A stretch of DNA of 64,000 nt, from IMG/VR virus record IMGVR_UViG_3300042520_002918; one strand, 5' to 3'. Both the position numbers and the translations under genes were made by a program. This document shows, piece after piece, positions 31,628 to 64,000 of this stretch (position 1 is the first letter of the stretch; the number at the start of each line of letters is the position of its first letter). Source of the stretch: an uncultured virus (IMG/VR IMGVR_UViG_3300042520_002918) (taxonomy: Duplodnaviria; Heunggongvirae; Uroviricota; Caudoviricetes). Below the pieces are notes generated by a model, which saw only the letters and a program-made list of their open reading frames with translations, searched no databases and was not told where the DNA came from.

Positions 31628-32119
31628 ATGGCAAGGGCACCAAAGGACAGTGGCGGCAAAAAGCCAACGACACCGTCGTCCCCAACAGGGACGGTCGTTC
31701 CCGTTGTCAATAACACAAACCCGAACAACGCACAGCAGGTAAGCGTTGCTTTCACACCGTCTTCTTACATTGGCAAGGGAACAGTTACATATACGGCGAC
31801 CTCAAGCCCTGGCGGTTTGACTGCGACTGGCTCATCTTCACCGATAACCGTATCTGGCTTAACTTCTGGAACTTCTTACACATTTACGGTTGTCGCAAAT
31901 ACAAATTATGGCGTTCCATCAGATGTTTCAGCGGCATCACCATCGGTAACTCCTCCGTATTTTCCGCCTTTTTTCCCTCCGTTTTTCCCACCGTTCTTCC
32001 CGCCCTTTTTCCCCCCATACTTCCCGCCGTTCTTCCCACCTTTCTTCCCGCCATTCTTCCCACCTTTCTTCCCGCCATATTTCCCACCCTGCTTTAATCC
32101 AAAATTGGGCCCGTGCTGA
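31628..32119 (+). CDS. Fibronectin type III domain protein with C-terminal (PP[F/Y/C]F)12 repeat
   Basis: VSVAFTP...YTATSSPGG.TATGSSSPITVSGLTSGTSYTFTVVA (FN3); ends PPCFNPKLGPC. Confidence 0.9.
   Translation: MARAPKDSGGKKPTTPSSPTGTVVPVVNNTNPNNAQQVSVAFTPSSYIGKGTVTYTATSSPGGLTATGSSSPITVSGLTSGTSYTFTVVANTNYGVPSDVSAASPSVTPPYFPPFFPPFFPPFFPPFFPPYFPPFFPPFFPPFFPPFFPPYFPPCFNPKLGPC
31952..32095 (+). repeat. 12 x 12-bp coding tandem repeat encoding PPYF(PPFF)4PPYF(PPFF)4PPYF PPCF
   Basis: Read directly from DNA; synonymous Pro/Phe codons vary between units. Confidence 0.95.
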
Positions 32120-38270: not shown

Positions 38271-38272
38271 AC

Positions 38273-38461: not shown

Positions 38462-38465
38462 AGAT

Positions 38466-38768
38466 ATGCCAAGGTCGTGTGCTGCCAATTCAGCAGAAAA
38501 ACTTTTTGACGCAGATAAGCATATTGTGGATTTGTGGCAAGACATCGCTGAAATTCTTTTTGTTACCGGTCTCGACCCTGCCAACTTTGAAAGTTACGAA
38601 ATTGGTCAAATTATCACTGCCCTAAGAGAAACTTTTTCCACAAAAGATTCTGGATTTGGAAGAGACCCAGCGTATCCATTTATTTATCGCAATTACAGTT
38701 TCTTTATACCGAAACTTAGAAATGCTTTTTTCTATTTGCAAGTATCTAAATACGGGAAAGAACTATGA
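38466..38768 (+). CDS. Small protein (possible 'GLD' paralogue 3)
   Basis: EILFVTGLDPANFE; ATGA overlap with the next gene. Confidence 0.65.
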   Translation: MPRSCAANSAEKLFDADKHIVDLWQDIAEILFVTGLDPANFESYEIGQIITALRETFSTKDSGFGRDPAYPFIYRNYSFFIPKLRNAFFYLQVSKYGKEL

Positions 38769-39511
38769 AACCAGAAGTCCTTTTCGCCGGAATGGTAAGT
38801 ACACAACTTTCTTCGTCTGGCACGTCGCTGGTCTCCAATGAATTTAAAACAAACATGGAAGACTGGTCAACCAAGTGCTGGAACACGATGGCCGAGGCAA
38901 GTGTTGACTTGAGCCATAACGCTGTGGGTTTGTCCACCGTGTCAATGCAGTGGCGAGTTTCAAAAGACATGACTGATGAATTTTGGGTTGGCGCGATAAT
39001 TCCCCAAATGGCAATAGAGGATTTTTTAATTCGCACCAAGCAACCAACATCAATACTGTTTGTTGGGGGACTTAGCAGTTCGGTGTCTCGTTTTCTTTTG
39101 GCGCCAGAAAATGTTTTTGACGGTTTCAAAAATGCAAATATAAATTTTGTGAACGATGTCGGCCTTTTCATGTATGAGAAAAATCTAAAAAACGTTTACG
39201 AGCACACCTCCTTTGGGTACTCGGTGTACGACAAGTCAGAACTTATTTCTGGAATCGATGAACAATTTGAAATGATTGCAGTTCAATCCTGGGATGTGGC
39301 GTTTGATATGGAGTATCTCGATTCGTTGGTCAACGCTTTGGCTCCGGGCGGGACGCTTGTTATTTCCGCAACAAACGATGCATCAAATATGTACTCGTCC
39401 TCATACACTTGGCACCCGTATTACCAGTTCCATGAAAATCTCAAAGGCTTGTCGGGAACCTCGTATCATTTTCCGCAATTTTACGGGGTTACGGTTTTTG
39501 TAAAGAATTAG
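38765..39511 (+). CDS. Divergent class I methyltransferase-fold protein
   Basis: PTSILFVGG, EQFEMIAV, NALAPGGTLVI. Confidence 0.55.
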   Translation: MKPEVLFAGMVSTQLSSSGTSLVSNEFKTNMEDWSTKCWNTMAEASVDLSHNAVGLSTVSMQWRVSKDMTDEFWVGAIIPQMAIEDFLIRTKQPTSILFVGGLSSSVSRFLLAPENVFDGFKNANINFVNDVGLFMYEKNLKNVYEHTSFGYSVYDKSELISGIDEQFEMIAVQSWDVAFDMEYLDSLVNALAPGGTLVISATNDASNMYSSSYTWHPYYQFHENLKGLSGTSYHFPQFYGVTVFVKN

Positions 39512-39550
39512 ATTCTTGCTTGTGGGTTTGTGCCCATATAGTATTTGTGT

Positions 39551-40462
39551 ATGGAAACTTCAATAAATTACGGCATGGGCATTGTCTGTTTCCCAAATTC
39601 TATAGAAGTTGACCAAGACCTGGTTATTCCATATTTTTCATCGCTCAAAGAGAAGGCAATTAAAGACGATTACACCATTGTTCATGAGGATGGACAAGAG
39701 CCTTATGCGATAAACAGAAGCGGCCACAGATACGAAATTGAAGACATAAAAAAGAGCGCAAGTCACATCATGGACTTCATCAACGAAGATAGTCCGAAAG
39801 AGTTGGTTGAATTTTTTAATGAATGTGAAAAAACCATCTATGAACATCTTTTGATGTACATAGAAATGTACCCGCATGTTCTCCCAAATATATGGTGGAC
39901 GGAAACTGGCCATGTGGCCGCTTATGGCGCAGGCAGCAGCATGGGGACTCACAACGACAACGAAGTGAATTATCAAGTTGGTTTTGAGCCGGATTTACAA
40001 CTTGCTACAAGGCATGTATTGAGTGTGTTGCTGTATTTAAATTCGTCCGTTGGGAGTCAAAAAGAACTAGGCAAATATGAATACAGCGGTGGAGAAATTG
40101 AATTCGTATATGCCAATTCTGTACATCAACCAAAATCTGGCGATTTGCTCATATTCCCATCAAACTACCTTGGCACACATGAAGTGAGGCCATGCCTGAG
40201 TGGGGAGAGATACGTTTACATTTCTTATTTTTCGCATGGCTCAGCCCATATCGAACGAGGCATACAGCCAGGACCAAGTGTCCCGGTTGGCAAGCAAAGC
40301 CAGGTTTGGCTGCCAACTATTGTTGACGATTATGTTTCGTACATTAGTGAAAAGCATTCATCAAGTAAACTAAAGCCATTGATGACTGGGGTTCCAACAA
40401 GAACTCATAGTTCAAGCACTAAAAAATATTTACCGCAAAGCAGGAACATTGTAAATGAATAG
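39551..40462 (+). CDS. P4H-like Fe(II)/2OG dioxygenase
   Basis: GTHNDNE, YSGGEI.F, FPSNYLGTHEVRP...G.RY; promoter TTGCTT-17 nt-TAGTAT-6 nt-ATG. Confidence 0.87.
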   Translation: METSINYGMGIVCFPNSIEVDQDLVIPYFSSLKEKAIKDDYTIVHEDGQEPYAINRSGHRYEIEDIKKSASHIMDFINEDSPKELVEFFNECEKTIYEHLLMYIEMYPHVLPNIWWTETGHVAAYGAGSSMGTHNDNEVNYQVGFEPDLQLATRHVLSVLLYLNSSVGSQKELGKYEYSGGEIEFVYANSVHQPKSGDLLIFPSNYLGTHEVRPCLSGERYVYISYFSHGSAHIERGIQPGPSVPVGKQSQVWLPTIVDDYVSYISEKHSSSKLKPLMTGVPTRTHSSSTKKYLPQSRNIVNE

Positions 40463-41330
40463 CAATTGCTTGATAGAGAACTTGGGCGGTGGCGTAGTTT
40501 TGTTCAAGAACGCAATCTCCCTGGATTGGGACTCGGTATTTGATATTGCCGAGGAACTGGTAGACCTTGATTCGCCATCAATGTACAAGCCGGCAATAGA
40601 CCCAGAAACTGGCGAAAAGATTCTTTCAAACAAAAGCGACTATATCTATTCCGAAGACGCAGCAGGCGACATGCCCCGCAGATGCTCGGTGGCGCACCAA
40701 TCAAATGATGCCGATGTTGTCAACTTGCTTAACGCGCTTGAATCAACAAGAGATGAATGCCTGCTTCATTATTTTTGGGAATATCCGTTGGCCTACAAGG
40801 TTGTGTGGTGGAAAGTTAAGGGGCATTTCGTTTCTTATTCGCCAACAAAGGGCGGACTTTACTTGGGGATTCATAGCGATACGAGTGCCGACTATGCATA
40901 TGGTTTTGACCACCCAAAGCAACAGTTGGCCACAAGAAACAGTGTTTCATGTTTGATTTATCTCAACGATTGCGTTGATACAGAAGAAGAATTAGACGGA
41001 AAAAACTTTACTGGCGGCCACCATCACTTTAATTATTTGAACATAACATACAAGCCACAAAAGGGTGACGTGCTGATGTTTCCTTCCAACTATGTTGCAG
41101 GACACGAAGTGAGAACCGTCACTGGAGGGCACAGGTACTCGTACTTGGGCTGGTATGCGCACGGAACGCCAAATCAGGCAGTTGGAGAATATGTAGTGGA
41201 CCCTTCGGTTAACTCATCGGCCACTAATGTGTACATGCCTTCACTCCGTGAGGATGTTTTGGCTTTTGCCAACAAAAAAGACCCATCTGGCAGTTCTCAC
41301 CTACACACACTCGTATCAAGGATTTGGTAA
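40455..41330 (+). CDS. P4H-like Fe(II)/2OG dioxygenase
   Basis: GIHSD, YLNDC, FPSNYVAGHEVRTV.GG.RY. Confidence 0.87.
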   Translation: MNSNCLIENLGGGVVLFKNAISLDWDSVFDIAEELVDLDSPSMYKPAIDPETGEKILSNKSDYIYSEDAAGDMPRRCSVAHQSNDADVVNLLNALESTRDECLLHYFWEYPLAYKVVWWKVKGHFVSYSPTKGGLYLGIHSDTSADYAYGFDHPKQQLATRNSVSCLIYLNDCVDTEEELDGKNFTGGHHHFNYLNITYKPQKGDVLMFPSNYVAGHEVRTVTGGHRYSYLGWYAHGTPNQAVGEYVVDPSVNSSATNVYMPSLREDVLAFANKKDPSGSSHLHTLVSRIW

Positions 41331-42193
41331 TGAACATCCATCATCACGGCTCAGGAATTGTCCAATTTGGAAACTTGTCTTTGATAAATCAAGATTTATT
41401 TAAAGAGGTAATGAGTGGTATTGAAAAAAATACACTGCCTCAAGGGTACACGGAATCGCCAATATCGAAAGATGTAAAACTAAACAACGGTTTATACGAA
41501 TATTCAGATGAAGACATCCAATCTGCTCCAATAAGGTACAACAATTATCTTTATCAGGACATGCCGAAAGAGCATGTTGATTTCATTCTTTCGTTGGAAA
41601 ATGCCCTTTATCAAAGCATGGTTCAGTATGCTGCGCTATTCCCGGTAGTGATTAATTCAATTCGATGGAGAACAAGAGGTTATTTCATCAGATATGAAGA
41701 GGGTCAAGGAATAGGACCTCACTCGGACTGCGATTTGCCATACGGTGAAGACAACGCAACTCCGCTTTCGTCCTTCCCTATCTGTAATACTGTCACCGCA
41801 GCGGTCATCCTCAATGATGATTATGTTGGAGGAGAGGTCTCTTATGCACCTTGGGGTATTGAATTCAAGCCAAAGGTGGGAGACATTCTCATGTACCCAT
41901 CTTCTTATGCTGGCTGCCACAGCATAAAGCCAGTTATCCAAGGTGTTCGTTATGCGTATCTGTCTTGGTTTGCCCAAGGCAGGAACGAATCAACACCATC
42001 CCCAAGTCAAAAAACATCGGAACTCGATTCAATCAAGTGGGTAAAAAATCTCAGGGAAGATGCATCCAAACTTACGCATGGCAACCTTGAGAATCGACAT
42101 ATTCCAGTCGGTAACGTGTTTGCTTCGCCAGTAAATGTGCCGGACCATTTAGGTGGTGGACATTACTTTGTCATTGGTTTAGATACAAAATAG
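41330..42193 (+). CDS. P4H-like Fe(II)/2OG dioxygenase
   Basis: GPHSD, LNDDYVGGEV, YPSSYAGCHSIKPV..G.RY. Confidence 0.87.
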   Translation: MNIHHHGSGIVQFGNLSLINQDLFKEVMSGIEKNTLPQGYTESPISKDVKLNNGLYEYSDEDIQSAPIRYNNYLYQDMPKEHVDFILSLENALYQSMVQYAALFPVVINSIRWRTRGYFIRYEEGQGIGPHSDCDLPYGEDNATPLSSFPICNTVTAAVILNDDYVGGEVSYAPWGIEFKPKVGDILMYPSSYAGCHSIKPVIQGVRYAYLSWFAQGRNESTPSPSQKTSELDSIKWVKNLREDASKLTHGNLENRHIPVGNVFASPVNVPDHLGGGHYFVIGLDTK

Positions 42194-52762: not shown

Positions 52763-55700
52763 ATGGCCGCGGCAGGAACTGGTGGGGTAAGCCCACTTAA
52801 CGTACAGGTGCGCATCACCACCACTGGTGTAAATGCTGCTGCGCGCGGAATGAGCGCCGTCACGCGCGCTGGCGGCTCAATGAGCAAGTCGCTTGCTGCC
52901 AGTTCAATATCCACCAGAACTCTTGGCGATGCAATGCGAATGACAGCGACCCTGATGAAGTACACGGTTGTTGGTGCATTTATGAATGCCGGCAAACAGG
53001 CAATTCAAATGCAGAGACAGTTTGAGTTGGCATTTTCCCGCATTAGGGGCTTGGTCGTCGTTGGTGGTGACAGCATTGACACGATGCGAGAAAAGGTTCT
53101 TTCTCTTGCCGGAGAAACAACCAGAGCACCATTGGAACTCGCTGACGCTCTTTACTACATCACTTCTGCCGGTATTAAAGAGGCAAGCACTGCGCTTGAA
53201 GTACTTGAGGCTTCAGCAAAGGCGGCCGCTGCTGGTCTGGGAACAACTAACACTGTTGCCGACGCCGTCACTTCTACATTGAATGCATACGGACAAGAAA
53301 ATTACTCAGCGGCAAAAGCCACTGACATTCTTGTTGCAACTGTACGTGAAGGTAAGGCGGAAGCAGATACGTTTGCTCCGGCACTCGGTAAGGTTTTGCC
53401 AGTTGCCGCGGCATACGGCGCATCATTTGAAGACGTATCTGCTGCAATCGCCGCTCTTTCGCGAGGTGGTTTGTCCGCTGGAACTGCTGCTATTTATGTT
53501 CGTCAAACATTGTCTCAGTTGCTAAAGCCATCAAAGCAAGCGCAAGAAGTTCTTGCTGGTGTTGGAACTAACGCAGACGAAATTCGCAAGAATATCCAAG
53601 AAAAAGGTTTATTTCCGGCCCTGATTGAATTGCGAGACCAACTTGGCGGCATTGAAAACGCTGCGGACTTTACAAAAGTATTCGGAAACGTACGAGCCCT
53701 TACGGCAGTGCTTTCTTTGGTTGGTCCTGCCGCAGAAGAAAATGCACAAATCTTCGAGCGCATGCAATCTGCCACTGGAGACTTGGATTATGCATTTTCT
53801 GCTTACGCGAATACAACAGATGCGCAATTTAATAAGGCGATGGCGGAACAACAGACAATGTTAATTAAACTTGGCGAAGGCTTAAAGCCAGTCATAACAT
53901 CGTTGTTAAAACTTGGAACCGCGATAACCAAAACTTTTGGCGCATTTTTGGGAACTGGATTTGGTAGGGGATTTGCTCGTGTTGCCGCTGGTGCGGTAAT
54001 CGCTGTTGCTGCACTTGCAACAGTTATGAAAACAATGTCGGCACTCATTCGCTTGGGCTCAAACTTAAATATTACATTGTTCGGAACTCAATTTAGATAC
54101 AACGCAACAACTGGCGCGATTACAAAATACACAACAGCAACAATGACTGCTAGTACGGCTACAGGAACAGTAACAAAGTCAATCGGTGCATGGACTGCGG
54201 CAAACGGATTTTTGGCAGGCTCAATCAGAATGGTTGCCCTCTCCATGAATTTCTTGACTAAATCAATGGCTTATATCATCCCAGTTCTAACAATTGGCTT
54301 GTTGTTGTTTGAGGGTTTCAAGTTTATTGCTGGAATGTTCAATAGTGGTAAGGAAGGCGCTGACTCTCTTGCGGGAAGTGTTGGAAAACTAAACACGTTG
54401 CTAGACGAAGCCGTTAAATACGGAAGGTCAAATCTTGTATTTGACGTAACAATTAATACGGATAACGCCGATGCAATGGCGGCTGTTAAGCGAATGAGGG
54501 AAGAAATTGAAGAACAGTCGCCAGACCTCATTCCTGATTTTAAGAGCATGGTCACAAAGCAGGGCGCACAAGCAGGAGCGCTATATATCCAGTCAATGCT
54601 TGATACCGCATTTGCCGGAAATACAAAAGAATTTAAAGACACTTTTGTTGCCCTGATGCTTTCGGTGCGACCAGATGTTGCAAAAGCCTTTAGAGAACTT
54701 GGCGCAAGTGTTGACTACAACGAAGCATTTGGTGACCCACTTACCAATGCGGAGACATTTCAGGCTCTTGCATCTGCTGTGGCAAGTGGGGCAGATGTAA
54801 TTTCCAGCGAATCAATTAAGGCTGGCGATGGACTCGAAACATTTATTAAAAAAGTTACCGACACAGAAATGGAAGAACATGCGTACCGAAGCAAAGAAGC
54901 GCTTGGTGCGTACGGTCAAGCATTTACTGACACAATTCAAAATACTGGACAACTCAACCCGCTTGTTGCAAATATTAGAAAGTGGCAAGCATATTTTGAA
55001 TCTGCTGGAACATCCTCAAATACTCAAGCAGAAGTTATTTCTCAAATCGTTGGTCCAGCACTTAAGGGTCTGACTGGAGATTTTGAACTTGTTGGCGAAT
55101 CGGCCGGAAACTTTAGGGATGTTTTTCTAAAGACTGCAAATGAAACTGCTGCCATTAAGTTTATTGAAAATACATTTGGTGTTGAGGGACAGCGCGCACT
55201 TGAAATATTAGAGGTTCTTCGAGACCGAATGAGGGCTATCCCATCTGGCGCAAAAGGTGCTGCCGCATCGGCAAAAGTTTTAGTTGATGCCCTTGGGGAA
55301 ATGAGCGTTAAATCAGAGGAGGTTGTGCGCAGCGTTTACAGCCTTGATACTGCGGTAACTGCTCTTGGCGACCGTTTCTCTGAAGGCTTGCATCCTGAAA
55401 TACAGGGTCTGGTTGATGATTTTGATGCAGCGCAAGCAGCACTTAAGAATTTCCAACGAGGCCAAGAAGCCCTTATGGGTGTCACGAGAGGAATGACAGA
55501 AGCACAAATTGACTTCCGTGATTCTATGCGTAACTTCAGGGAGGATGCATCGAAAGCCGGTGGCGACCTGTTCTCCGGAAGTGTTAACGCCGACAAGGCC
55601 CAAGAAGGCCTTCTTGATGCAATGGACAGTGTTCTTGAGGTCGTAAATCAATTTGCACTTGCTGGAGACGAGGCTGGAGCAACACGTGCGCTAGGCGAAG

Positions 55701-57679
55701 GAATTGCTCGAATCGTTGGGGACGGAATGGCAGCCGGATTGAGCGAAGTGGACATTACTAAGTTCTTGGAAATGCATCAATTTGGTACGAGCAGTGATGG
55801 AATCATGCCGGACATAATTAAAACTCTTTTTGGCGCAAAAGATGCACAAGGCAAGGAAATGCAACAAGTCGGCAATGACCTCATGGCTGGATTTGCCATG
55901 GGTATTGAAAATGGTCGACCATATGTTTCGCAAGCGATTGACGCTGTTGGCGATGATGTAATTGCTCGTCTGAAGCGCCGCCTCGGCATCAAGAGCCCGT
56001 CAACGGTAATGGCAAAAGAAGTTGGTACACCGTCCGCAGAAGGTGTCGCTGTTGGATTCCAGGCAGAAATGGCTGGTCGTTCTGGTCGTGTAATTGAGAA
56101 GTCAATGCAAAATGCCATTATGAACGCATACAAGAAGGGTGGCTATAGGGGTGCTGGCGCTTTCTTCAAAAAGTTCCTTGAGCAAAAAGACAATGTCGAA
56201 ACACCCGCCACAGATTACGTAAAAGCAGTAATGGGTCGAATGAAGGACATTATTGGCTCACTTTCTGGTTATATCAAGTCGCAGTTAAACTTCCGCAAGG
56301 CTCAAGCCGACTTGGCAAAACTCATCAACATGCAGCGAGCGCTTGATGACCGCAGAAAACGAGCCGCTCGTGAACAGCAGTATGCGGAAACGCGCTTTGG
56401 CGTTGGTGGAGGCGCACAAGTAACAGGGTACGAACAAGCACAACTTGATGAATTGCAATTGGAATTTGAACGTGTCTCACGCGACTATGCAATGGGGCGC
56501 GCATCATATGTCCAACTTGTAGATGCAGAAATCGCCCTATTTGAAGCGCGTGCAGCAGCATCCGAGGTAAACGACACAGTTATTGATTCGCAAAACAAGT
56601 TCATCGATGCATCTGTTGATGTTGAAAACAAACAACTTAATCTTGCTGATGCAACGGTAAACGTCCTTTCCGCTTACCAAGGAGTACAAGAAGCAGCAGC
56701 AGAACTTTACGCAAATCATAAAGAACTTGAGACTGTTTATAACAATTTGGCAACAGCGACTGGAATTGCTAGTGGCAAGTTGCAAGTTGGCACAACCAAC
56801 CTAACCACCCTTGGAACCCAAGTTGGCACATACGGTGGCTATGTGTCAACTGTTGGCGGTTATGTTTCTACTCTTGGTAACAATATTGAAGTAACTGGTC
56901 AAGCATTCAACACAACTCTTGACGGTCCAGACGGAGTATTTGCAAAGATTGTAAAGGCTGGTGGAAATCTCAATACACTGACCGCCGGCATTGGGGCTGA
57001 ATTTAAAAATCTTGCTGCCGGGCTCCTCAATAAAGACAGTCAAATGTGGAAGGACCTTAACTCATTGGGTCCAGCAATTTTTAAGGCAATCCAGTTTTCG
57101 GCGAACGAATCATTTGCCAAGTCGCCACTTGTTTTGCGAATTCCAGTTACTGCAATCGTTGATGGCGGCGGCGGTGGCGGGATAAACCCAGACTCATCAC
57201 AAAGCGGACTTGGCACAAAGCCGATGACATATTCGCAATGGCTGAGTGCAAATAAGAAGTCGGTCGAGAACGCCACATTGGCAAGTTTTGGCGGCCAGTA
57301 TGCAGGAGGCGGCCAAGAGTTCCGGAACCAGTTGGTTGCCTCTGGGGCGTTCGATACTCGATACAAGAGCATTTTGAATAGTGAATGGAATAAGTATCTT
57401 GCGGGCTTTAGGGCTGTTGGTGGGCCTGTTTCCGGTGAAATGCCATATGTTGTTGGGGAGCGTGGCCCGGAAATGTTTATTCCAAAGGTTTCCGGAACAA
57501 TCGTCACGAATTCCGCTCTTGAGCGATACACCAGAAACACACAACGTCAAACAGCGACACCACAGACGTCGTCTGGCCAGCCTATTATTGTCACGGTCAA
57601 TAACCCAGTACCTGCAGCAGCGGAAGATTCAATCACCCGCCGCATGAAGGTTCTGGCAAACAGTGGATTGTTCGGGTGA
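52763..57679 (+). CDS. Tail tape measure protein
   Basis: 1638 aa, Ala/Gly-rich helical; TP901-type core (ELADALYYITSAG); LGIKSPS; GGPV...PYVVGERGPEMFIP. Confidence 0.95.
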   Translation: MAAAGTGGVSPLNVQVRITTTGVNAAARGMSAVTRAGGSMSKSLAASSISTRTLGDAMRMTATLMKYTVVGAFMNAGKQAIQMQRQFELAFSRIRGLVVVGGDSIDTMREKVLSLAGETTRAPLELADALYYITSAGIKEASTALEVLEASAKAAAAGLGTTNTVADAVTSTLNAYGQENYSAAKATDILVATVREGKAEADTFAPALGKVLPVAAAYGASFEDVSAAIAALSRGGLSAGTAAIYVRQTLSQLLKPSKQAQEVLAGVGTNADEIRKNIQEKGLFPALIELRDQLGGIENAADFTKVFGNVRALTAVLSLVGPAAEENAQIFERMQSATGDLDYAFSAYANTTDAQFNKAMAEQQTMLIKLGEGLKPVITSLLKLGTAITKTFGAFLGTGFGRGFARVAAGAVIAVAALATVMKTMSALIRLGSNLNITLFGTQFRYNATTGAITKYTTATMTASTATGTVTKSIGAWTAANGFLAGSIRMVALSMNFLTKSMAYIIPVLTIGLLLFEGFKFIAGMFNSGKEGADSLAGSVGKLNTLLDEAVKYGRSNLVFDVTINTDNADAMAAVKRMREEIEEQSPDLIPDFKSMVTKQGAQAGALYIQSMLDTAFAGNTKEFKDTFVALMLSVRPDVAKAFRELGASVDYNEAFGDPLTNAETFQALASAVASGADVISSESIKAGDGLETFIKKVTDTEMEEHAYRSKEALGAYGQAFTDTIQNTGQLNPLVANIRKWQAYFESAGTSSNTQAEVISQIVGPALKGLTGDFELVGESAGNFRDVFLKTANETAAIKFIENTFGVEGQRALEILEVLRDRMRAIPSGAKGAAASAKVLVDALGEMSVKSEEVVRSVYSLDTAVTALGDRFSEGLHPEIQGLVDDFDAAQAALKNFQRGQEALMGVTRGMTEAQIDFRDSMRNFREDASKAGGDLFSGSVNADKAQEGLLDAMDSVLEVVNQFALAGDEAGATRALGEGIARIVGDGMAAGLSEVDITKFLEMHQFGTSSDGIMPDIIKTLFGAKDAQGKEMQQVGNDLMAGFAMGIENGRPYVSQAIDAVGDDVIARLKRRLGIKSPSTVMAKEVGTPSAEGVAVGFQAEMAGRSGRVIEKSMQNAIMNAYKKGGYRGAGAFFKKFLEQKDNVETPATDYVKAVMGRMKDIIGSLSGYIKSQLNFRKAQADLAKLINMQRALDDRRKRAAREQQYAETRFGVGGGAQVTGYEQAQLDELQLEFERVSRDYAMGRASYVQLVDAEIALFEARAAASEVNDTVIDSQNKFIDASVDVENKQLNLADATVNVLSAYQGVQEAAAELYANHKELETVYNNLATATGIASGKLQVGTTNLTTLGTQVGTYGGYVSTVGGYVSTLGNNIEVTGQAFNTTLDGPDGVFAKIVKAGGNLNTLTAGIGAEFKNLAAGLLNKDSQMWKDLNSLGPAIFKAIQFSANESFAKSPLVLRIPVTAIVDGGGGGGINPDSSQSGLGTKPMTYSQWLSANKKSVENATLASFGGQYAGGGQEFRNQLVASGAFDTRYKSILNSEWNKYLAGFRAVGGPVSGEMPYVVGERGPEMFIPKVSGTIVTNSALERYTRNTQRQTATPQTSSGQPIIVTVNNPVPAAAEDSITRRMKVLANSGLFG

Positions 57680-57684: not shown

Positions 57685-58557
57685 GTGTCTACAGCGCTTC
57701 CAAATGTTCTTGAGTGGTACGACGTCAATGGGGTAGAACTTGCCACTCACGGCTACATGCTTTCAAGTGTTGAGCGCGGCATTCCCGCTAAAAAGGGAGA
57801 AAATGTTGGCTCGGCCATTATTCACGGAACACAATGGCGTGAAAAACGGCTTGACACACGTACAGAAACATGGACCATTTGGGTTAGTGACAATGACCCA
57901 GTAAGCGGCTCGGTCGCAGCGACTGAGGCTGGACGACGCTCACAGTTCAACGAAAACTACGACACGGTTTTTAATCTGCTTAACGAAATGCCTGAACTTC
58001 TTACGGTCACCCATGTTCGCATCAATCCAGACAACCCTTTGAATTATTCTTCGCGAGTTGCTTACGGTGAAGTTGTTGGCGCAGTAACTGTTTCGGACCA
58101 TCGTGACTTGAACGTAACTGAATTTACAGTTGATGTTCAGTTTCCTGACCCAAGATGGTTTGCCCTTACAAGCACTTCAGCATCTGCAAACTTCTCCACC
58201 ACTCCGGTTGCGGTTCCGATGTCCGCGAGCGCAGTAGGCACTGCGCCGATTACCTATATGACAATTACTTTTACTTCCACTAACAATCTGACCAATCCTC
58301 GCCTTGTTAACGAAACCTACGCTTCGAGTCAAACAGCAATTGGTTACAACGGCACAATACCAACTGGACAATCTGTTGTTATTGATACTGACGCTTTGAC
58401 GCTAAAGAAAAATAACGTTAATGATATTGCCAATTTGTATCGTGCTGGCGCTCGTCAATCATGGTTTGAGATATTCCCATTAAGCAACACGATTTCATGT
58501 AGCCGCACATCCGGGTCCGGAACAGTGACAATTTCCTATCGGAAGGCCTATTACTAA
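57685..58557 (+). CDS. Distal tail protein (Dit-like)
   Basis: Directly after tape measure; F.V.VQFPDPRWF, VGTAP, NPRLVN, VTISYRKAYY. Confidence 0.82.
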   Translation: MSTALPNVLEWYDVNGVELATHGYMLSSVERGIPAKKGENVGSAIIHGTQWREKRLDTRTETWTIWVSDNDPVSGSVAATEAGRRSQFNENYDTVFNLLNEMPELLTVTHVRINPDNPLNYSSRVAYGEVVGAVTVSDHRDLNVTEFTVDVQFPDPRWFALTSTSASANFSTTPVAVPMSASAVGTAPITYMTITFTSTNNLTNPRLVNETYASSQTAIGYNGTIPTGQSVVIDTDALTLKKNNVNDIANLYRAGARQSWFEIFPLSNTISCSRTSGSGTVTISYRKAYY

Positions 58558-61500
58558 TGGCTAAAACAACCTGGGATGTTTGGGTTGTTCTAGCAAACGA
58601 CCCAAACCAAACAATTGCGTATTTGCCGCGCTGGAAGTCAATTCAGTTATCCGACCAATTAAACGACGTTGGCTCAGCAACTTTGGAGCACGATTTTTCA
58701 GACCCATTCTTTGATGCTTTTCAAGCAGAGCGTGGAGATTCTTTGCTTGACGGTCCATACGCTCTGCAAGTTCGCAGAGATGGAGACCCGGTATTTACGT
58801 TTTTTATTGAGGATGTGCAAGTTGACCGCGCCGGAGTAAGTCAGCCGCTTGTTATTGGTGGGCGCGGCATTGCTTCTGCTCTTGGGTGGGGAATTGTCCT
58901 TCCAGAGGATTTCAGCAATCAGGCACGAGCAACTGCAGGCACAACACAGCGACCGAAGTTTTTTGACCGACTGTTCCCCGGTTACGCATATAACGTAAGA
59001 GTTGCAACGACTGGCAATCTCTCTGCCACCTATGAATCTGGTCCACAGACAGATGTGGCTGGTGCTGGAGCACGCCTTACAGCAACTGCCAATGGTTCTA
59101 TAAACAACTCCGGAATTGATGGCGTTACAGACCTGGTCGTCGGCGACACCATCCTTGTAAAAAACCAAACAACACAAGCCCATAACGGTGTCTATTGGAT
59201 TGTTTCTATTGGTGGCTCTTCAAATCCTTGGGTTATTCAGCGCACTGCAAGGGCAGACGGAAGTCCAATCTCAGACCTTGAAGTCGGCAACGCAGCCTTC
59301 GTAAATGAAGGAACAACTAATGGGTATAAATCTTTTGCTATTACATCAAATGGTGGTCTGACATCATCAAATCAAGTTGGCTCAGTAAGCATTGTCTGGA
59401 CCGAAGTTTCGCTTGGTGCGTTCACTGGAATATCTGCCTTTTACATCCTCTTTACAGAAGCAGATACTGGCTATGAGTATTCGACAAAGAAGGAAGACTT
59501 TGGCGCAATCAAAACTCTTAACGGCCGTGGAGGAATCGGATACGCGGTTGACTGGCCACTTTCTCTTGATGCAACCCTCACATCATCTTTGGGTAAAACA
59601 GACTCGAAAGGGCGAGTCGTTCGAGATGGAGGAAACTTCAACATTGCAGTTGGCCGAACTCTTCTTGATGTAATAAACGAAGTTTCCGCAAATACTGGCG
59701 TGGATTGGCATGTCTCGCCAAGCGGCGTTATCAGTGTTGCAGTAAGGCCGTTTACCACTGACACAATTGTGTTTGACGAACCATTTGGCGATGACATGAC
59801 CAGTGGTTCTGCAGCACTCATTTTTAGTCTTCCAATGCTGGAGACCGTAGAAACACGAACGTCAGTTTCTGAACTACGAACAGTTGTTTATGGCTCGGAC
59901 GGGTTCAATCTGGATAGGCAAATCTCTGACCGCACAGGAACTTACGGTTTCCGTGAAATGTTTATTGAGAATACGTCGGAAGATGCTCCGGCCGTTGCAA
60001 ATATCACTGCCTCTGCGGTTCGCCAGGTTCGCGATGGCAAGTTGCAAATAACCACATCATTTGCTGAGCGAGACGGCATGACCGCGTGGGAAGACTTTGA
60101 CATTGGCGACAAAGTACTCGTGGAAATTGATACAGGAGTATTCAGCGAACGAATTATCAGTGCGATAAGTGCTTCTATCGACGAAAACGGCAACGAAACA
60201 ATTGAAGTCACTTTCGGAGACATCTTTCAGGATATTGCAAGCAACCTAAAGTACGCAGCAAACTACGGGCGTCTCGGTGCTGCTGAAATACCAACATTTA
60301 CGCTTCGCGGCACATCATCAAAGCCGTTGGCGCCAACAGGAACTTCTGTTGGCGCTGAAGTTGTTGGGATGAGCAACAGAGTTGTTGCCTCTTGGGAATC
60401 CCCAGACAACACAAGCGCTACTCATTACGAAGCGATTGTTTACCGAGAAGAGCAAAACAGTGTTGGAATAGCAATTAGTTATCCAATTGTCGACATCTAC
60501 CGTGACGGAAATATTGCTTATGCAGAAGTCGATGACCAGCATGGCTTTAATGTTGGCGACTTAATCAATATCACTGGCACTACAGACGGATACTTTGACA
60601 GAACTCTTGTGTTTTTGACAAGTGCGTCAGCAACTTTTTTTACATTTGACGACGTAGGCCCAGACATCCCAACAGGAACAGCATCTGTCGGAGACGTAAC
60701 TCGAATTGTTGAGCGTCACTCGGCCACGGTTGCCGCAGACAAAAACTCTGCAGTGTTTGAGAATCTTGCTGCTCCTGGGCGAGAATACCAATTTACAATT
60801 CTTCCATATACGACAAACGGTCAGTCCGGCGTGCCATCTCCTCCGTTTTCCTTCACCGCTTCGGCAAGCGCTCAGGTCTTGTTCAACGGAGCAATCCGCT
60901 CAAACAACTATGTTGCAGACACAAGCGGATGGACAATTGAAGCATCTGGAGATGCAGAACTCAACTCAGTAACAGTACGAAATGGCACATGGGTTCAAGG
61001 AACACTTACCGCACCAACGCTCCAAACATCTACATCTAATCCTCGAATTATCATAGATTCTTCAGGACTCCGAGCATTCAATAACGCCGGAGATTTGGTA
61101 ACTCAAATTAGTTCCGTGACTGGTGACCTTTACACAGTTGACGGATATTTTGCTGGTCAAATTATTGGTTCAACAATTGATATTGGTGGTTTTGACGCCA
61201 CATCTTTCCACGTTGGTGCAAATGGAGACATGTGGTCCGGTTCCGCCAGCATAAGCAATGCTCCATTTTCGGTAACAAATGCTGGTTACATGACTGCAGC
61301 AACAGGAAAAATCGGAGACCTGGAAATACAACCTGGATATCTACAACTTGGCGGCACATTCTTGGGGAATATGTTTATTGGAAACCTTGATTCTGCTGAA
61401 GGATGGGCGGACAGTCAAGGGTATGACGCGGCAGGAATGAAATTGAATGGTCCAGAAAGCATTGACTCATTTGGTTCAAAATCAATTTTGACATGGGAAA

Positions 61501-62117
61501 AACTTGAGTTGTGGGCATCTGATGGCAACCCGGCAACAACAGAAAAACTTGCAGTATGGAAAGAAGGAATTCAATATCAAGCAAATGATTACACGGACAG
61601 AATCGGATTCTTTTGGGACGCAGATACCCTTACGTTATTTGCCCGCATTGTTCATGATGACAACACGGAAACAATTTATTGTCTTGAAGAGTGCGCTGGT
61701 TCGCCAAGCCCAGTTGACCCAGTATCCCCGGTCGACCCAGTTGGTCCAGTTGCCCCGGTTGACCCAGTATCTCCAGTGGAACCTTCCTATGAGGGTCAAC
61801 TATGCACGACGTTCCTTTACATTAACGAAATTTGTGGTTATGAAAATCAATGCCTTGCGCCATTCCAGAACGCGCCGAATGACTGTAACGGCATCTACAC
61901 TCCCCCGGTAACGCCGCCGGTAACTCCGCCGGTCACGCCGCCTGTTACTCCGCCGGTCACGCCGCCTGTTACTCCGCCGGTCACGCCGCCAGTTACTCCG
62001 CCAGTTACTCCGCCGGTGACACCTCCTGTTACTCCGCCAGTAAGCCCTCCTCCTGTCTGTGACCCGCCATGCGAACCAGGATTTACGTGTGTAGCGACCA
62101 ATACCTGCATAGGATAA
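58557..62117 (+). CDS. Tail-tip hub/central fibre protein with FN3-like domains and Pro/Cys-rich C-terminus
   Basis: LNDVGSATL, DFDIGDKV, IEVTFGD hub motifs; SNNYVA..SGW.I..G.AE; C-terminal (PVx)8, Cys cluster, (TPPV)12. Confidence 0.87.
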   Translation: MAKTTWDVWVVLANDPNQTIAYLPRWKSIQLSDQLNDVGSATLEHDFSDPFFDAFQAERGDSLLDGPYALQVRRDGDPVFTFFIEDVQVDRAGVSQPLVIGGRGIASALGWGIVLPEDFSNQARATAGTTQRPKFFDRLFPGYAYNVRVATTGNLSATYESGPQTDVAGAGARLTATANGSINNSGIDGVTDLVVGDTILVKNQTTQAHNGVYWIVSIGGSSNPWVIQRTARADGSPISDLEVGNAAFVNEGTTNGYKSFAITSNGGLTSSNQVGSVSIVWTEVSLGAFTGISAFYILFTEADTGYEYSTKKEDFGAIKTLNGRGGIGYAVDWPLSLDATLTSSLGKTDSKGRVVRDGGNFNIAVGRTLLDVINEVSANTGVDWHVSPSGVISVAVRPFTTDTIVFDEPFGDDMTSGSAALIFSLPMLETVETRTSVSELRTVVYGSDGFNLDRQISDRTGTYGFREMFIENTSEDAPAVANITASAVRQVRDGKLQITTSFAERDGMTAWEDFDIGDKVLVEIDTGVFSERIISAISASIDENGNETIEVTFGDIFQDIASNLKYAANYGRLGAAEIPTFTLRGTSSKPLAPTGTSVGAEVVGMSNRVVASWESPDNTSATHYEAIVYREEQNSVGIAISYPIVDIYRDGNIAYAEVDDQHGFNVGDLINITGTTDGYFDRTLVFLTSASATFFTFDDVGPDIPTGTASVGDVTRIVERHSATVAADKNSAVFENLAAPGREYQFTILPYTTNGQSGVPSPPFSFTASASAQVLFNGAIRSNNYVADTSGWTIEASGDAELNSVTVRNGTWVQGTLTAPTLQTSTSNPRIIIDSSGLRAFNNAGDLVTQISSVTGDLYTVDGYFAGQIIGSTIDIGGFDATSFHVGANGDMWSGSASISNAPFSVTNAGYMTAATGKIGDLEIQPGYLQLGGTFLGNMFIGNLDSAEGWADSQGYDAAGMKLNGPESIDSFGSKSILTWEKLELWASDGNPATTEKLAVWKEGIQYQANDYTDRIGFFWDADTLTLFARIVHDDNTETIYCLEECAGSPSPVDPVSPVDPVGPVAPVDPVSPVEPSYEGQLCTTFLYINEICGYENQCLAPFQNAPNDCNGIYTPPVTPPVTPPVTPPVTPPVTPPVTPPVTPPVTPPVTPPVTPPVTPPVSPPPVCDPPCEPGFTCVATNTCIG
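61710..61781 (+). repeat. 8 x 9-bp coding repeat (PV[D/S/G/A/E])
   Basis: PVD PVS PVD PVG PVA PVD PVS PVE read from the sequence. Confidence 0.9.
61899..62042 (+). repeat. 12 x 12-bp coding tandem repeat (TPPV)12
   Basis: Read directly from DNA; synonymous variation between units. Confidence 0.95.
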
Positions 62118-62129
62118 GATTTAACAACT

Positions 62130-62330
62130 ATGGCACGCCGTCGTTTCGTATTTATCGCTCAAGGCGATGTATTTATGCAACTTGTAATGCAGGATGATTA
62201 TGATTCAAAAGCGCCTATGTGGGCCGCTGGACTTTCTAGTAATCCAACAGTTGTCGAAGTTACTGATTCACCAGAGGTTTTGCCTGGGTGGACATACGAT
62301 GGGACTTCTTTTCACGCTCCAGAAGAATAA
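62130..62330 (+). CDS. Small fibre-associated protein
   Basis: Ends GWTYDGTSFHAP, a motif common in small genes following fibres. Confidence 0.7.
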   Translation: MARRRFVFIAQGDVFMQLVMQDDYDSKAPMWAAGLSSNPTVVEVTDSPEVLPGWTYDGTSFHAPEE

Positions 62331-62359
62331 GCATTTACTAACGAAATTGTGAGGATGAA

Positions 62360-62770
62360 ATGATTACAGAAACATCTGGGCTTTTTTACGATGGGGTCGA
62401 GTGTGGGTATAGGTGGATTCCCTCCGAGCAACGCGGCTTGGAAAAGGGCTCTTCTTTGGGTGTCGCAGTTGCGGTGATAATGGGCAATCAGGTAGTGGCA
62501 ACATTCCCAACCTACCCGCCAATTTGGGAAGCCCTAAACGGTGGCAACATTGTTGACGTAACTGAATCTGGCAATCACAATGTTCAAGAAGGACACGCAG
62601 TAATAGAAATTCAAAAAGAAGGCAATACTCAATACGTATTACATATCTCAAGTGAACTTCTTGCTGCCGCGCTAACAAGTGGGGCTACACTTGCAAGGAT
62701 AGAGGCTGACAACTACGCGGTTATGGCTGGATGGGGATACTCAAATGGAAACTTCACAGAACCAACCTGA
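62360..62770 (+). CDS. Fibre-associated protein, paralogous C-terminus to the previous gene
   Basis: AAALTS...GWGYSNGNFTEP versus AAGLSS...GWTYDGTSFHAP. Confidence 0.7.
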   Translation: MITETSGLFYDGVECGYRWIPSEQRGLEKGSSLGVAVAVIMGNQVVATFPTYPPIWEALNGGNIVDVTESGNHNVQEGHAVIEIQKEGNTQYVLHISSELLAAALTSGATLARIEADNYAVMAGWGYSNGNFTEPT

Positions 62771-63002
62771 AACAAACTGGGATAAGTTTAAGAAAAAACT
62801 TGCTGCTCAAGGTCAGGCGCGGCCATGGCATCTATTGAATCCTGGAATGCACGTCCCAGACGATGTAGTTGCTGCAAGGCTTGAAATTTGCAAGGGTTGC
62901 GATTCATTTATTAGCAAAACAAGCCAATGTCGCGAGTGTGGATGCATAATGCCGCTTAAGGCAAGGCTTGGCCATGCTGTTTGTCCACTCAATAAGTGGT
63001 GA
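62745..63002 (+). CDS. Small Cys-rich protein (DUF6171-like)
   Basis: RLEICKGC...QCRECGC.M.LK..L....CPLNKW. Confidence 0.75.
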   Translation: METSQNQPETNWDKFKKKLAAQGQARPWHLLNPGMHVPDDVVAARLEICKGCDSFISKTSQCRECGCIMPLKARLGHAVCPLNKW

Positions 63003-63005
63003 TTT

Positions 63006-64000
63006 ATGCCAAGGCGTGACGGCGTAATTAAGTTTGATTTGCCAACGCCGCTGGTTGATGAGCCACAATTAATCAATAATTTTCTGCCAGAAGAATTATT
63101 TAAAAGAGTAAAAAAATCTGTAGATGATTTAAAACTTGGCCCAAGTGGCAACAAGCAATATCACACGATGATAGGTAGATGGGAATCGTCAATATCCCTA
63201 GACCCAGACATTGAGGAATACTGTCTAAAAATGGCAAGAGAAATCTTTAATGACGACACATTAGAGAAGGCATATTTCTTTGTTTCTAGATATCAAATTC
63301 AAAATGGCTGCACACCATCTCTTTGGGAACACTATGACCAGAATGGCACCCAGACAACAATAGATTTAACAATTGAAAACACTGCTAATTGGGACCTTCG
63401 TGTTGAGAGGGTTGACTACAAGCAAGAAGCGAACAGCGCAATCATTTTCGCTGGTCAACAGCACATGCACGCACGGCCACCGTATCCAACCACGGATGAC
63501 TCATTGAGCACTGTTGTTTTGTTCATGCATTTCACTCAGCCAAGCCACTGGATTCAAACTGAAAAAAACGGCGTGCAAAAATATGGAAGAGATGGAGACA
63601 TTCGATATTTTAATAAAAACAGATACATACCACTTCCAGATTGTCCAGTTGAACAGCCAGTTTGCCCGTGCCACGACTACTCAAATGTTTTGGGAACATA
63701 CACGGAAATGTTTAGCAAGTTTACTGATGACGAGGTGGAGATAACCGAATTGCCAATATTGTCAAAAAAGGTTCTTGCTCCAGGAATTGTCGAGTACATG
63801 GTTCCACGAGAAGCATCGCTCACTCTTGACGGACTCACTAGAAATGTTTGTTTTAGATTTTGGAAGCGCGCTGAGGTTTTGAGTCCGGACAGGAAACCGA
63901 CTGTCGACTATAACGCAAGGCGCTGCTATGTAAATTTCTTAAACAGTTCTGCGGAAGAGTGCCATCCTCACGACCCGGCAAACCGCTTATATTCAAGCCT
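63006..64000 (+). CDS. Fe(II)/2OG dioxygenase, runs off the window and possibly has two domains (not in ORF track)
   Basis: Open from ATG 63006 to the end: INNFLPEE...RYQ...LWEHYD (HxD)...W.L.VE...NSAIIFAGQQHMHAR; then LAPGIVEY...W..AEV...R.C, resembling the start of a second P4H-like domain. Confidence 0.8.
   Translation, partial: MPRRDGVIKFDLPTPLVDEPQLINNFLPEELFKRVKKSVDDLKLGPSGNKQYHTMIGRWESSISLDPDIEEYCLKMAREIFNDDTLEKAYFFVSRYQIQNGCTPSLWEHYDQNGTQTTIDLTIENTANWDLRVERVDYKQEANSAIIFAGQQHMHARPPYPTTDDSLSTVVLFMHFTQPSHWIQTEKNGVQKYGRDGDIRYFNKNRYIPLPDCPVEQPVCPCHDYSNVLGTYTEMFSKFTDDEVEITELPILSKKVLAPGIVEYMVPREASLTLDGLTRNVCFRFWKRAEVLSPDRKPTVDYNARRCYVNFLNSSAEECHPHDPANRLYSS

What the first reader, a model, noticed from the sequence alone, without database searches (positions are those of the whole stretch)
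61710..64000. The same architecture recurs at the tail tip: (PVx)8-Cys-(TPPV)12-Cys followed by another dioxygenase
Seen: the 1186-aa tail-tip protein ends in 8 PVx triplets, a 4-Cys segment, 12 TPPV units and a Cys cap (CDPPC...TC...TCIG). Three small genes follow (one with CxxC/CxxCGC), then an HxD...H dioxygenase missed by the ORF track. Both Pro tracts in the window are 12 four-residue Pro-Pro units (144 bp), C-terminal, Cys-capped and upstream of hydroxylase genes. Inference: a second substrate/enzyme module, so the coupling is unlikely to be accidental. Thr in TPPV is an additional O-glycosylation acceptor.
Basis: partly seen in the sequence, partly recalled or inferred. Interest (0 to 1): 0.78.

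Follow-up and report, generated by a model that had tools for sequence, protein, structure and literature searches.

The report
Phage tail-tip proline stalk with dedicated hydroxylases
An uncultured lake phage ends its tail-tip protein in proline-valine repeats capped by small cysteine knobs, and the genes that follow, including a double proline-hydroxylase-like enzyme, travel with such repeats in dozens of other phages, so the phage probably modifies its own tail tip chemically, though no chemistry has been shown.

Summary
The 1186-aa tail-tip protein (58557-62117) ends in (PVx)8, a 4-Cys segment, (TPPV)12 and a 4-Cys cap. Three small genes and an oxygenase ORF that runs off the window follow.

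On the same public contig the oxygenase is 451 aa. The Pfam P4H-like domain lies beyond base 64000.

- **Forward test:** of 46 viral loci with this enzyme, 45 have a DUF6171 motif upstream. All 40 with enough upstream DNA carry a Pro tract plus Cys cap there (35 automatic, 5 on inspection). Carrier proteins are of at least four kinds.
- **Reverse test:** among 48 distinct (TPPV)>=4 carriers, 25 of 25 Cys-capped ones have DUF6171 downstream and 24 of 25 have oxygenases, against 1 of 23 uncapped.
- **Specificity:** DUF6171 follows the Cys cap, the N-type domain follows PV-type tracts, and plain P4H-like genes follow any terminal Pro tract.
- **Relatives:** some add or fuse hydroxyproline-type glycosyltransferases.

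Best reading: a substrate-enzyme cassette for prolyl hydroxylation, inferred and not shown. This scan noted the general theme before on other DNA; this cassette is a new variant.

The parts
58557..62117 (+). Tail-tip protein, 1186 aa, the carrier of the repeats. It follows the tape measure gene (52763-57679) and the Dit gene (57685-58557).
   Evidence: weak Sipho_Gp37 hit (30.5 bits, cut-off 26.2, residues 506-555), PHROG minor tail protein. The neighbour matches SPP1_Dit and PHROG Dit.
61710..61781 (+). (PVx)8 tract, residues 1052-1075
61782..61898 (+). First Cys knob: 39 residues with 4 Cys (C-x9-C-x5-C-x10-C)
   Evidence: Similar 4-Cys caps follow tracts in L023, L034, L013 and L033.
61899..62042 (+). 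(TPPV)12 tract, residues 1115-1162. It has 9 distinct DNA units, and all differences are synonymous.
62043..62117 (+). SPPPV plus the second Cys knob (CDPPCEPGFTCVATNTCIG, 4 Cys) and the stop codon
62130..62330 (+). Small accessory protein, short form (66 aa). It is a conserved cassette member placed between carrier and DUF6171.
   Evidence: (phrog_14370, unknown function), 63, 75: 16 homologues in the same position in other loci.
62360..62770 (+). Small accessory protein, long form (136 aa). It is a paralogue of the 66-aa protein over the C-terminal ~47 residues.
   Evidence: hhalign probability 97%, E 6e-11
62745..63002 (+). DUF6171 protein, 85 aa, with six invariant Cys (C49, C52, C62, C65, C67, C80). 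Its stop lies 3 nt before the oxygenase start codon.
   Evidence: AF2 pLDDT 83. No fold match.
63006..64000 (+). Residues 1-331 of a 451-aa double dioxygenase. This covers the N-type DSBH domain (H109, D111, H155, R157) and the linker. The P4H-like C-domain (H371, D373, H424, R434) lies beyond the window.
31628..32119 (+). Context: the window's other tract protein, FN3 plus (PP[F/Y]F)11 plus PPCFNPKLGPC. It is followed by 32166-32804 (no Pfam hit) and then by a battery of PF13640 genes starting at 35280.

Best explanation
The last 135 residues (1052-1186) of the tail-tip protein are two tandem 'proline-valine tract plus four-cysteine knob' units. The four genes behind it form a cassette that modifies such units before or during tail assembly. 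These genes are two paralogous small proteins, the six-Cys DUF6171 protein, and a 451-aa enzyme made of two 2-oxoglutarate/Fe(II) dioxygenase domains.

The most likely chemistry is hydroxylation of the tract's prolines. The C-domain is of the collagen/HIF prolyl-hydroxylase type. The N-domain is a second oxygenase that occurs almost only with PV-type tracts. In some relatives the hydroxyl groups are then glycosylated. DUF6171 tracks the Cys knob, so it probably recognises or helps fold the knob, or recruits the enzyme to it.

The product would be a stiff, polyproline-II-like stalk carrying small knobs at the very tip of the tail. Stalk length is evolutionarily adjustable.

Shown: the anatomy, conservation of the cassette, the two-way association, both folds and triads, and the glycosyltransferase fusions in relatives. 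Inferred: that the tract is the substrate, that the product is hydroxyproline, the role of DUF6171, and the stalk function.
For: **Enzyme**
- Full length is 451 aa on the same contig.
- The C-domain matches PF13640 at E 5e-16. By sequence it matches Bacillus anthracis P4H, PKHD hydroxylases, P3H1, PBCV-1 P4H and PHD2 in the PDB.
- Both HxD...H triads are invariant in 27 of 27 homologues.

**Forward association**
- 46 viral loci encode this enzyme, and 45 of 46 have the DUF6171 motif upstream.
- 40 loci have at least 1500 nt upstream. Of these, 35 pass an automatic tract-plus-cap test.
- The other 5 pass on inspection: L015, L016 and L051 have three internal tract-plus-cap units, and L044/L045 have a 131-aa cap with 14 Cys.
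- Background: 2 of 1235 other stop-to-stop segments pass.
- Carriers differ: Sipho_Gp37-like proteins of 1116-1329 aa, FN3 proteins of about 200-270 aa, proteins of 437-542 aa and 1212 aa without a family, and proteins of 140-178 aa.

**Reverse association**
- Of 48 non-identical (TPPV)>=4 carriers, 25 of 25 Cys-capped ones have DUF6171 downstream and 24 of 25 have oxygenases.
- Among uncapped carriers the figure is 1 of 23, and that one has a long 8-Cys tail.
- Fisher p is about 1e-12.

**Specificity**
- PPFF carriers: DUF6171 in 10 of 12 capped against 7 of 56 uncapped.
- N-type domain: 2 of 68 PPFF carriers against 19 of 27 capped TPPV carriers.
- P4H-like genes: 47 of 68 PPFF carriers, whether capped or not.

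**Glycosyltransferases in relatives**
- In L044 and L045 the oxygenase is fused to an HPAT-like (hydroxyproline O-arabinosyltransferase) domain at 29.6 bits against a cut-off of 23.9. The two assemblies are independent.
- PF11397 GlcNAc transferases are adjacent in L013, L050 and L054.
- GT61 genes are adjacent in L023, L040, L042 and L043.

**Selection on the peptide**
- All 12 TPPV units are identical in protein although they are 9 different DNA strings.
Against: - No chemistry has been shown anywhere in this family.
- The association could partly reflect shared descent of a mobile fibre cassette. Many loci are related, and I removed duplicates only by identical tails or by eye.
- DUF6171 and the oxygenases follow the Cys cap rather than the tract. 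Uncapped TPPV linkers have none (0 of 20), so the knob could be the real target.
- One of 17 N-type sequences weakly hits Asp/Asn beta-hydroxylase (E 0.0055).
- This phage has no glycosyltransferase in the cassette or in the next 10 kb.
- L003/L004 keep the enzymes after losing the TPPV tract, although a PVx tract and a cap remain.
- Eight of 27 capped TPPV loci lack an N-type hit.
Confidence: 0.62

Rival explanations
1. The enzymes act on the Cys-rich knob and not on the prolines. An example would be beta-hydroxylation of Asp/Asn or another knob residue, as in EGF-like domains. The Pro tract would then be only a spacer.
For: DUF6171 and the oxygenases track the Cys cap. With TPPV carriers they are present in 26 of 27 capped and 0 of 20 uncapped, and with PPFF carriers DUF6171 is present in 10 of 12 capped and 7 of 56 uncapped. 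One N-type sequence hits Pfam Asp_Arg_Hydrox at E 0.0055. GT61, adjacent in four relatives, includes an EGF-domain O-GlcNAc transferase; this last point is recalled, not from a call.
Against: The C-domain's sequence relatives in the PDB are prolyl hydroxylases. P4H-like genes accompany uncapped PPFF tracts in 39 of 56 cases, so a Pro tract alone attracts such enzymes. The fused HPAT-like domain and the PF11397 enzymes point to hydroxyproline. Knob sequences are very diverse and show no common Asp/Asn position that I could see.
Confidence: 0.15
2. The genes are linked without any substrate relation. The oxygenase and DUF6171 act on something else, such as a host protein, a metabolite or nucleic acid. 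They merely ride in the variable fibre region next to a common kind of unmodified linker.
For: Phage 2OG oxygenases are often treated as auxiliary metabolic genes. Iyer et al. 2010 ascribed cyanophage dioxygenase arrays to secondary metabolites (PMC2938197, passages). Many loci here are related by descent.
Against: The link persists across at least four unrelated carrier proteins. It holds in both directions with about 1 exception in 48. It is specific to tract type and cap. Hydroxyproline-type transferases are fused or adjacent in relatives. The gene order is tightly packed: 3 nt separate DUF6171 from the oxygenase.
Confidence: 0.13
3. The tract is a collagen-like triple helix stabilised by hydroxyproline and stapled by a cystine knot, as in fibrillar collagens.
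For: The (PVx)8 tract has a triplet period. Cys clusters lie at the C-terminal end of the tracts. A P4H-type enzyme is adjacent.
Against: No Gly occurs at every third position in either tract, and the TPPV tract has a period of four. A collagen triple helix therefore cannot form; the Gly requirement is established knowledge, not a call.
Confidence: 0.03

Closest known systems
Chlorovirus PBCV-1 prolyl 4-hydroxylase (vCPH, PDB 5c5t) and that virus's Pro-rich repeats
   Different: Here the virus is a tailed phage of bacteria. The enzyme is a fusion of two oxygenase domains, or two to three separate genes in relatives. The repeats are xPPV/PVx followed by Cys knobs on tail proteins. A DUF6171 protein and a small protein always accompany them. 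No activity has been measured.
Plant and protist hydroxyproline-rich glycoprotein pathways (P4H, then HPAT arabinosylation of extensins; Skp1 Hyp-GlcNAc transferase)
   Same: The order of steps is implied by gene content in relatives: a P4H-like enzyme plus an HPAT-like domain (L044/L045) or PF11397 GlcNAc transferases (L013, L050, L054). HPATs add arabinose to extensins and peptides (PMC4738400, abstract as listed). The link of PF11397 to Skp1 hydroxyproline is recalled, not from a call.
   Different: HPATs are described as plant-specific (same abstract), whereas here the domain is in phages. This window's own cassette has no glycosyltransferase. The repeats are not Ser-Pro4.
Phage-encoded glycosylation of mycobacteriophage virion proteins (Che8 and relatives)
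   Same: Actinobacterial phages modify their own structural proteins with phage-encoded enzymes (PMC11256854, passages). That paper cites Freeman et al. 2023, which I did not read. This phage carries WhiB, which suggests an actinobacterial host.
   Different: That system is direct glycosylation of capsid proteins and involves no oxygenase. Here the conserved enzymes are dioxygenases and the target is a tail-tip or fibre tract.
Pro/Phe-repeat fibre proteins beside prolyl-hydroxylase batteries, noted earlier by this scan on other genomes
   Same: The general theme is the same, and this window holds such a module too (31628-32119 with PF13640 genes at 35280-42193).
   Different: This cassette is distinct. 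It has PV-type tracts with Cys knobs, DUF6171, an N-type oxygenase domain that is nearly absent from PPFF loci (2 of 68), and a fused double enzyme.

Membership tests
2OG-Fe(II) oxygenase, P4H-like (Pfam PF13640): C-domain of the 451-aa protein | Profile match above the curated cut-off | tested here: met
   59.9 bits against a cut-off of 27, residues 359-441. This part lies beyond the window and was read from L001, the same contig at 100% identity.
2OG-Fe(II) oxygenase, P4H-like (Pfam PF13640): C-domain of the 451-aa protein | HxD...H iron triad and a basic residue for 2-oxoglutarate | tested here: met
   H371, D373, H424 and R434 are invariant in 27 of 27 sequences.
2OG-Fe(II) oxygenase, P4H-like (Pfam PF13640): C-domain of the 451-aa protein | Hydroxylation of peptidyl proline | not testable with these tools
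   Needs an enzyme assay or mass spectrometry.
2OG-Fe(II) oxygenase superfamily: N-domain (the part inside the window) | Double-stranded beta-helix fold | tested here: met
2OG-Fe(II) oxygenase superfamily: N-domain (the part inside the window) | HxD...H triad | tested here: met
   H109, D111 and H155 (plus R157) are invariant in 27 of 27 sequences and in 17 of 17, including stand-alone homologues. I did not check their placement at the metal site of the model residue by residue.
2OG-Fe(II) oxygenase superfamily: N-domain (the part inside the window) | Match to a curated Pfam oxygenase family | tested here: not met
   No oxygenase family at E <= 0.1 for the window part. Of 17 N-type sequences, only one has a weak Asp_Arg_Hydrox hit at E 0.0055.
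DUF6171 (Pfam PF19668) | Profile match above the cut-off, and a conserved Cys pattern | tested here: met
Siphovirus tail-tip protein (Sipho_Gp37-like) | Profile match, and position after the tape measure and Dit genes | tested here: inconclusive
   30.5 bits against a cut-off of 26.2, but only over residues 506-555. The gene order TMP-Dit-this gene is as expected.
Collagen-like triple helix | Gly at every third residue | tested here: not met
   The tracts are PVx and TPPV with no regular Gly.
Hydroxyproline O-glycosylation pathway (P4H plus a Hyp-directed glycosyltransferase) | A Hyp-type glycosyltransferase in the same gene set | tested here: not met
   There is none among the cassette genes or among 12 ORFs in the next 10 kb of this phage. 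The feature is met in relatives: L044/L045 (HPAT-like fusion), and L013, L050 and L054 (PF11397).

The most novel reading that the evidence does not exclude
Tailed phages of freshwater bacteria run an extensin-like pathway on their own tail tips. In this reading a two-headed dioxygenase hydroxylates the prolines of xPPV units. DUF6171 is a new kind of factor that recognises or folds the cysteine knobs and brings the enzyme to them. In many lineages hydroxyproline-specific sugar transferases of otherwise eukaryotic types (HPAT, Skp1-type GlcNAc transferase) then decorate the stalk. The result would be a hydroxyproline glyco-whisker used for host contact.
Probability: 0.35. Interest if true: 0.85.

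Novelty: new variant of a known kind. Interest (0 to 1): 0.78.

Why it matters
- Hydroxyproline has, to my knowledge, not been reported in bacteriophage particles. My literature searches found no report of phage tail proteins modified by prolyl hydroxylases, and nothing at all on DUF6171.
- The many 2OG oxygenases of aquatic phages have had no known substrates.
- This cassette offers a concrete, cheap test: a short peptide substrate, two enzyme domains and one accessory protein. It also offers natural controls, namely relatives with split enzymes, with or without sugar transferases, and a sister phage that lost one tract.
- If confirmed, it would give a function to DUF6171. It would also show that hydroxyproline-directed glycosyltransferase families regarded as plant- or eukaryote-specific occur in phages, and it would add a new way in which phages tune receptor-binding tips.

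Tried and rejected
- **No whole genome held:** none is held for this window. I read beyond base 64000 from L001, the same public contig.
- **Isolated phage records:** no DNA or protein match to the region.
- **Prokaryote genomes:** a scan of 185,579 species genomes with the enzyme profile gave 81 pattern hits but no relative. The scan relies on patterns, so this is weak evidence that the family is restricted to phages.
- **Complex prediction:** a DUF6171 plus oxygenase job was not available, so no binding test was made.
- **Protein atlas:** DUF6171 clusters are viral. There was one structural look-alike inside a viral PF11397 glycosyltransferase cluster (TM 0.59 over 55 residues). I used this only as a lead.
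- **My first automatic tract-plus-cap rule was too strict:** it passed 23 of 40 loci. I replaced it with the rule.
- **Collagen reading:** rejected because there is no regular Gly.
- **GNAT-like genes:** they replace or join the small protein in L012, L039, L048 and L055, but the Pfam hits are weak (E 1e-4 to 8e-3). I did not pursue them.
- **Earlier findings:** look-ups by place and by sequence returned nothing.
Full report
**1. Observation**

The ORF 58557-62117 (+) encodes 1186 residues. It follows a 1638-aa tape measure gene and a Dit gene (Pfam SPP1_Dit, PHROG Dit). It has a weak Sipho_Gp37 hit, so it is the tail-tip protein of a siphovirus.

Its C-terminus reads:
- (PVx)8, at 61710-61781
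- a 39-residue segment with 4 Cys, at 61782-61898
- twelve exact TPPV units, at 61899-62042
- SPPPV plus a 4-Cys end, at 62043-62117

All 10 Cys of the protein lie in the last 145 residues. The twelve units are 9 different DNA strings whose differences are all synonymous. The peptide, not the DNA repeat, is therefore what is kept.

Three small ORFs follow, of 66, 136 and 85 aa. The 85-aa ORF is DUF6171, at 33.4 bits against a cut-off of 27. An ORF from 63006 then runs off the window.

**2. The enzyme**

No whole genome is held for this window. Locus L001 is the same public 76.6-kb viral contig at 100% identity.

- **Length.** On L001 the ORF is 451 aa.
- **C-domain.** Pfam places 2OG-FeII_Oxy_3 at residues 359-441 (E 5e-16), which is beyond base 64000. 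A profile of 27 homologues matches bacterial and viral prolyl 4-hydroxylases, P3H1 and PHD2 in the PDB over the same part.

The protein is therefore a fusion of two dioxygenase domains, both with complete triads. In other phages the two parts are separate genes, in the order DUF6171, C-type, a weak N-type paralogue, N-type.

**3. Is the coupling more than chance? Forward test**

A profile scan of IMG/VR found 46 loci with this enzyme.
- A DUF6171 motif lies upstream on the same strand in 45 of them. The one exception has only 17 nt of upstream DNA.
- An xPPV-type tract was found upstream by a simple pattern in 35 of 46.
- The remaining loci with enough DNA carry variant tracts: PVx in L018/L019, PVDPGF in L039, PVVPVVPP in L044/L045, and PPFF plus APVx or SPV in L048/L049/L055.
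- With a general rule, 35 of the 40 loci with at least 1500 nt upstream pass. The rule requires at least 7 Pro in 21 Cys-free residues, followed by at least 4 Cys within 130 residues, in an ORF ending less than 2.7 kb upstream.
- The other five pass on inspection. L015 has three internal tract-plus-knob units and a final uncapped tract. L016 and L051 show the same segment end. L044 and L045 have a 131-residue cap with 14 Cys.
- Elsewhere in the same loci, 2 of 1235 stop-to-stop segments pass.

The carriers are unrelated (28 loci that I picked as non-duplicates):
- Sipho_Gp37-like tail-tip proteins of 1116-1329 aa
- FN3 proteins of about 200-270 aa
- proteins of 437-542 aa and of 1212 aa without a Pfam family
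- proteins of 140-178 aa

The longest xPPV run varies from 5 to 26 units in 23 loci.

**4. Reverse test**

Of these, 58 had a complete carrier ORF and at least 2 kb downstream, and 48 remained after removing identical tails.

| Carrier type | n | DUF6171 downstream | Oxygenase homologues |
|---|---|---|---|
| Cys-capped | 25 | 25 | 24 |
| Uncapped | 23 | 1 | 1 |

The single uncapped exception is L067, whose 165-residue tail has 8 Cys. Fisher p is 8e-13 for DUF6171 and 3e-11 for oxygenases. Internal TPPV linkers of large proteins have none of these genes. The predictor is therefore tract plus cap.

**5. Specificity**

The same scan for (PPFF)3 gave 125 or more stretches, with 80 fetched. It yielded 68 distinct evaluable carriers. 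With the cap defined as at least 4 Cys in the last 70 residues, the counts are:

| Carrier set | n | DUF6171 | N-type domain | P4H-like (C-type) |
|---|---|---|---|---|
| PPFF, capped | 12 | 10 | 1 | 8 |
| PPFF, uncapped | 56 | 7 | 1 | 39 |
| TPPV, capped | 27 | 26 | 19 | 23 |
| TPPV, uncapped | 20 | 0 | 0 | 0 |

The PPFF difference for DUF6171 has p = 3.5e-6. In sum, P4H-like genes go with any terminal Pro tract, DUF6171 goes with the Cys knob, and the N-type oxygenase goes with PV-type tracts.

**6. Other cassette members**

A small protein lies between carrier and DUF6171 in most loci. It has a short form of 66-80 aa (16 sequences) and a long form of 130-146 aa (10 sequences). The two forms are homologous over about 47 C-terminal residues (hhalign probability 97%, E 6e-11). 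The window has one of each. Some loci have a weak GNAT-like gene there.

DUF6171 has six invariant Cys and a confident model (pLDDT 83). It has no fold match.

**7. Glycosyltransferases in relatives**

I gave Pfam 2 ORFs of L050, 4 ORFs lying between DUF6171 and the oxygenase, and 32 of the 90 downstream ORFs listed, choosing one per distinct arrangement.

- **HPAT-like fusion.** L044 and L045 are two independent assemblies (715 of 720 residues identical). They encode a 720-aa protein in which an HPAT-like (hydroxyproline O-arabinosyltransferase) domain precedes the double oxygenase. The domain scores E 5.7e-7 and 29.6 bits against a cut-off of 23.9.
- **PF11397 GlcNAc transferases.** These lie next to the enzyme in L013 (E 2e-29), L054 (E 1e-27) and L050.
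- **GT61 genes.** These lie between DUF6171 and the enzyme in L040, L042 and L043, and directly after it in L023, the nearest sipho-type relative with a TPPV tract.

HPATs act on hydroxyproline of extensins (PMC4738400, abstract as listed). That PF11397 is the Skp1 hydroxyproline GlcNAc-transferase family, and that GT61 includes the EGF-domain O-GlcNAc transferase, is my recollection and not from a call.

This phage itself has no glycosyltransferase or further oxygenase among 12 ORFs in the next 10 kb. Those ORFs include HIRAN, HTH, ParB, a methyltransferase, WhiB and AdoMet decarboxylase. WhiB suggests an actinobacterial host.

**8. The sister phage**

L003 and L004 come from different samples, and their enzyme is 59% identical over the window part. 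They lack the TPPV tract, the second knob and the 66-aa gene through one clean indel of about 425 nt, estimated from the alignment columns. Their tail-tip protein still ends in (PVx)9 plus a 6-Cys segment, and the 134-aa gene, DUF6171 and the enzyme remain.

**9. Reading**

The best explanation is a dedicated modification cassette whose substrate is the tract-plus-knob end of the carrier, with prolyl hydroxylation as the core step (confidence 0.62).

Rivals:
- The knob, not the prolines, is the target (0.15).
- The genes are linked without a substrate relation (0.13).
- The tract is a collagen-like helix (0.03). This is contradicted by the absence of regular Gly.

No chemistry has been shown, and relatedness among loci inflates the statistics.

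**10. Known and new**

The closest published case is the PBCV-1 prolyl 4-hydroxylase acting on that virus's Pro-rich repeats (PMC3634087, passage).

Iyer et al. 2010 predicted that collagen-like and tail-collar proteins co-encoded with 2OG oxygenases in bacteria are their substrates. They ascribed cyanophage oxygenase arrays to secondary metabolism (PMC2938197, passages).

Glycosylated mycobacteriophage capsids are known (PMC11256854, passages). The primary paper it cites was not read.

My searches found no report of this cassette or of DUF6171. Supplements were not consulted.

This scan has noted the general theme of Pro-repeat fibre proteins beside hydroxylase batteries on other genomes. None of those notes mentions DUF6171, the double enzyme, the dependence on a Cys cap, or the HPAT fusion.

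Noticed in passing
L001:19727-20281 and L001:20190-20579 (same contig, about 10 kb beyond the window end): A WhiB-family transcription factor (E 7e-13) and an S-adenosylmethionine decarboxylase (E 2.5e-14). WhiB points to an actinobacterial host.
   Followed up: partly
window 34367-35230 (-): A glutathione-peroxidase-like protein (weak, 26.3 bits against a cut-off of 27) on the opposite strand inside the oxygenase battery. It may be relevant to redox upkeep of iron enzymes or to the Cys knobs.
   Followed up: no
window 26186-31624 (+): An 1812-aa fibre with an Mtd_N (major tropism determinant N-terminal) domain (E 1e-15) and a 111-bp internal repeat at 30832-31033. Its C-terminal ~60 residues resemble the 199-aa fibre protein that precedes the tract protein in L005-L009.
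   Followed up: partly
window 35280-42193 (+): Five PF13640 oxygenase genes (35280, 36690, 39545, 40455, 41324), a DUF6065 gene (35966) and a weak GT4-like gene (42201), all behind the PPFF protein. This is the battery type that the scan noted on other genomes.
   Followed up: partly
L048:4735-5154 and L055:4707-5240: Single small proteins that carry both a PPFF-type tract and a PV-type tract, each followed by its own Cys-rich segment. They lie upstream of a GNAT-like gene, DUF6171 and the double oxygenase.
   Followed up: partly
L044:8173-8601: A small JmjC/cupin-like protein (E 4e-6) lies just downstream of the HPAT-oxygenase fusion. Extra PF13640 genes lie downstream in L039 and L042.
   Followed up: no
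window 62745-62770: The DUF6171 ORF overlaps the end of the 136-aa gene by 26 nt, and its stop lies 3 nt before the oxygenase ATG. The packing suggests coupled translation of the cassette.
   Followed up: no
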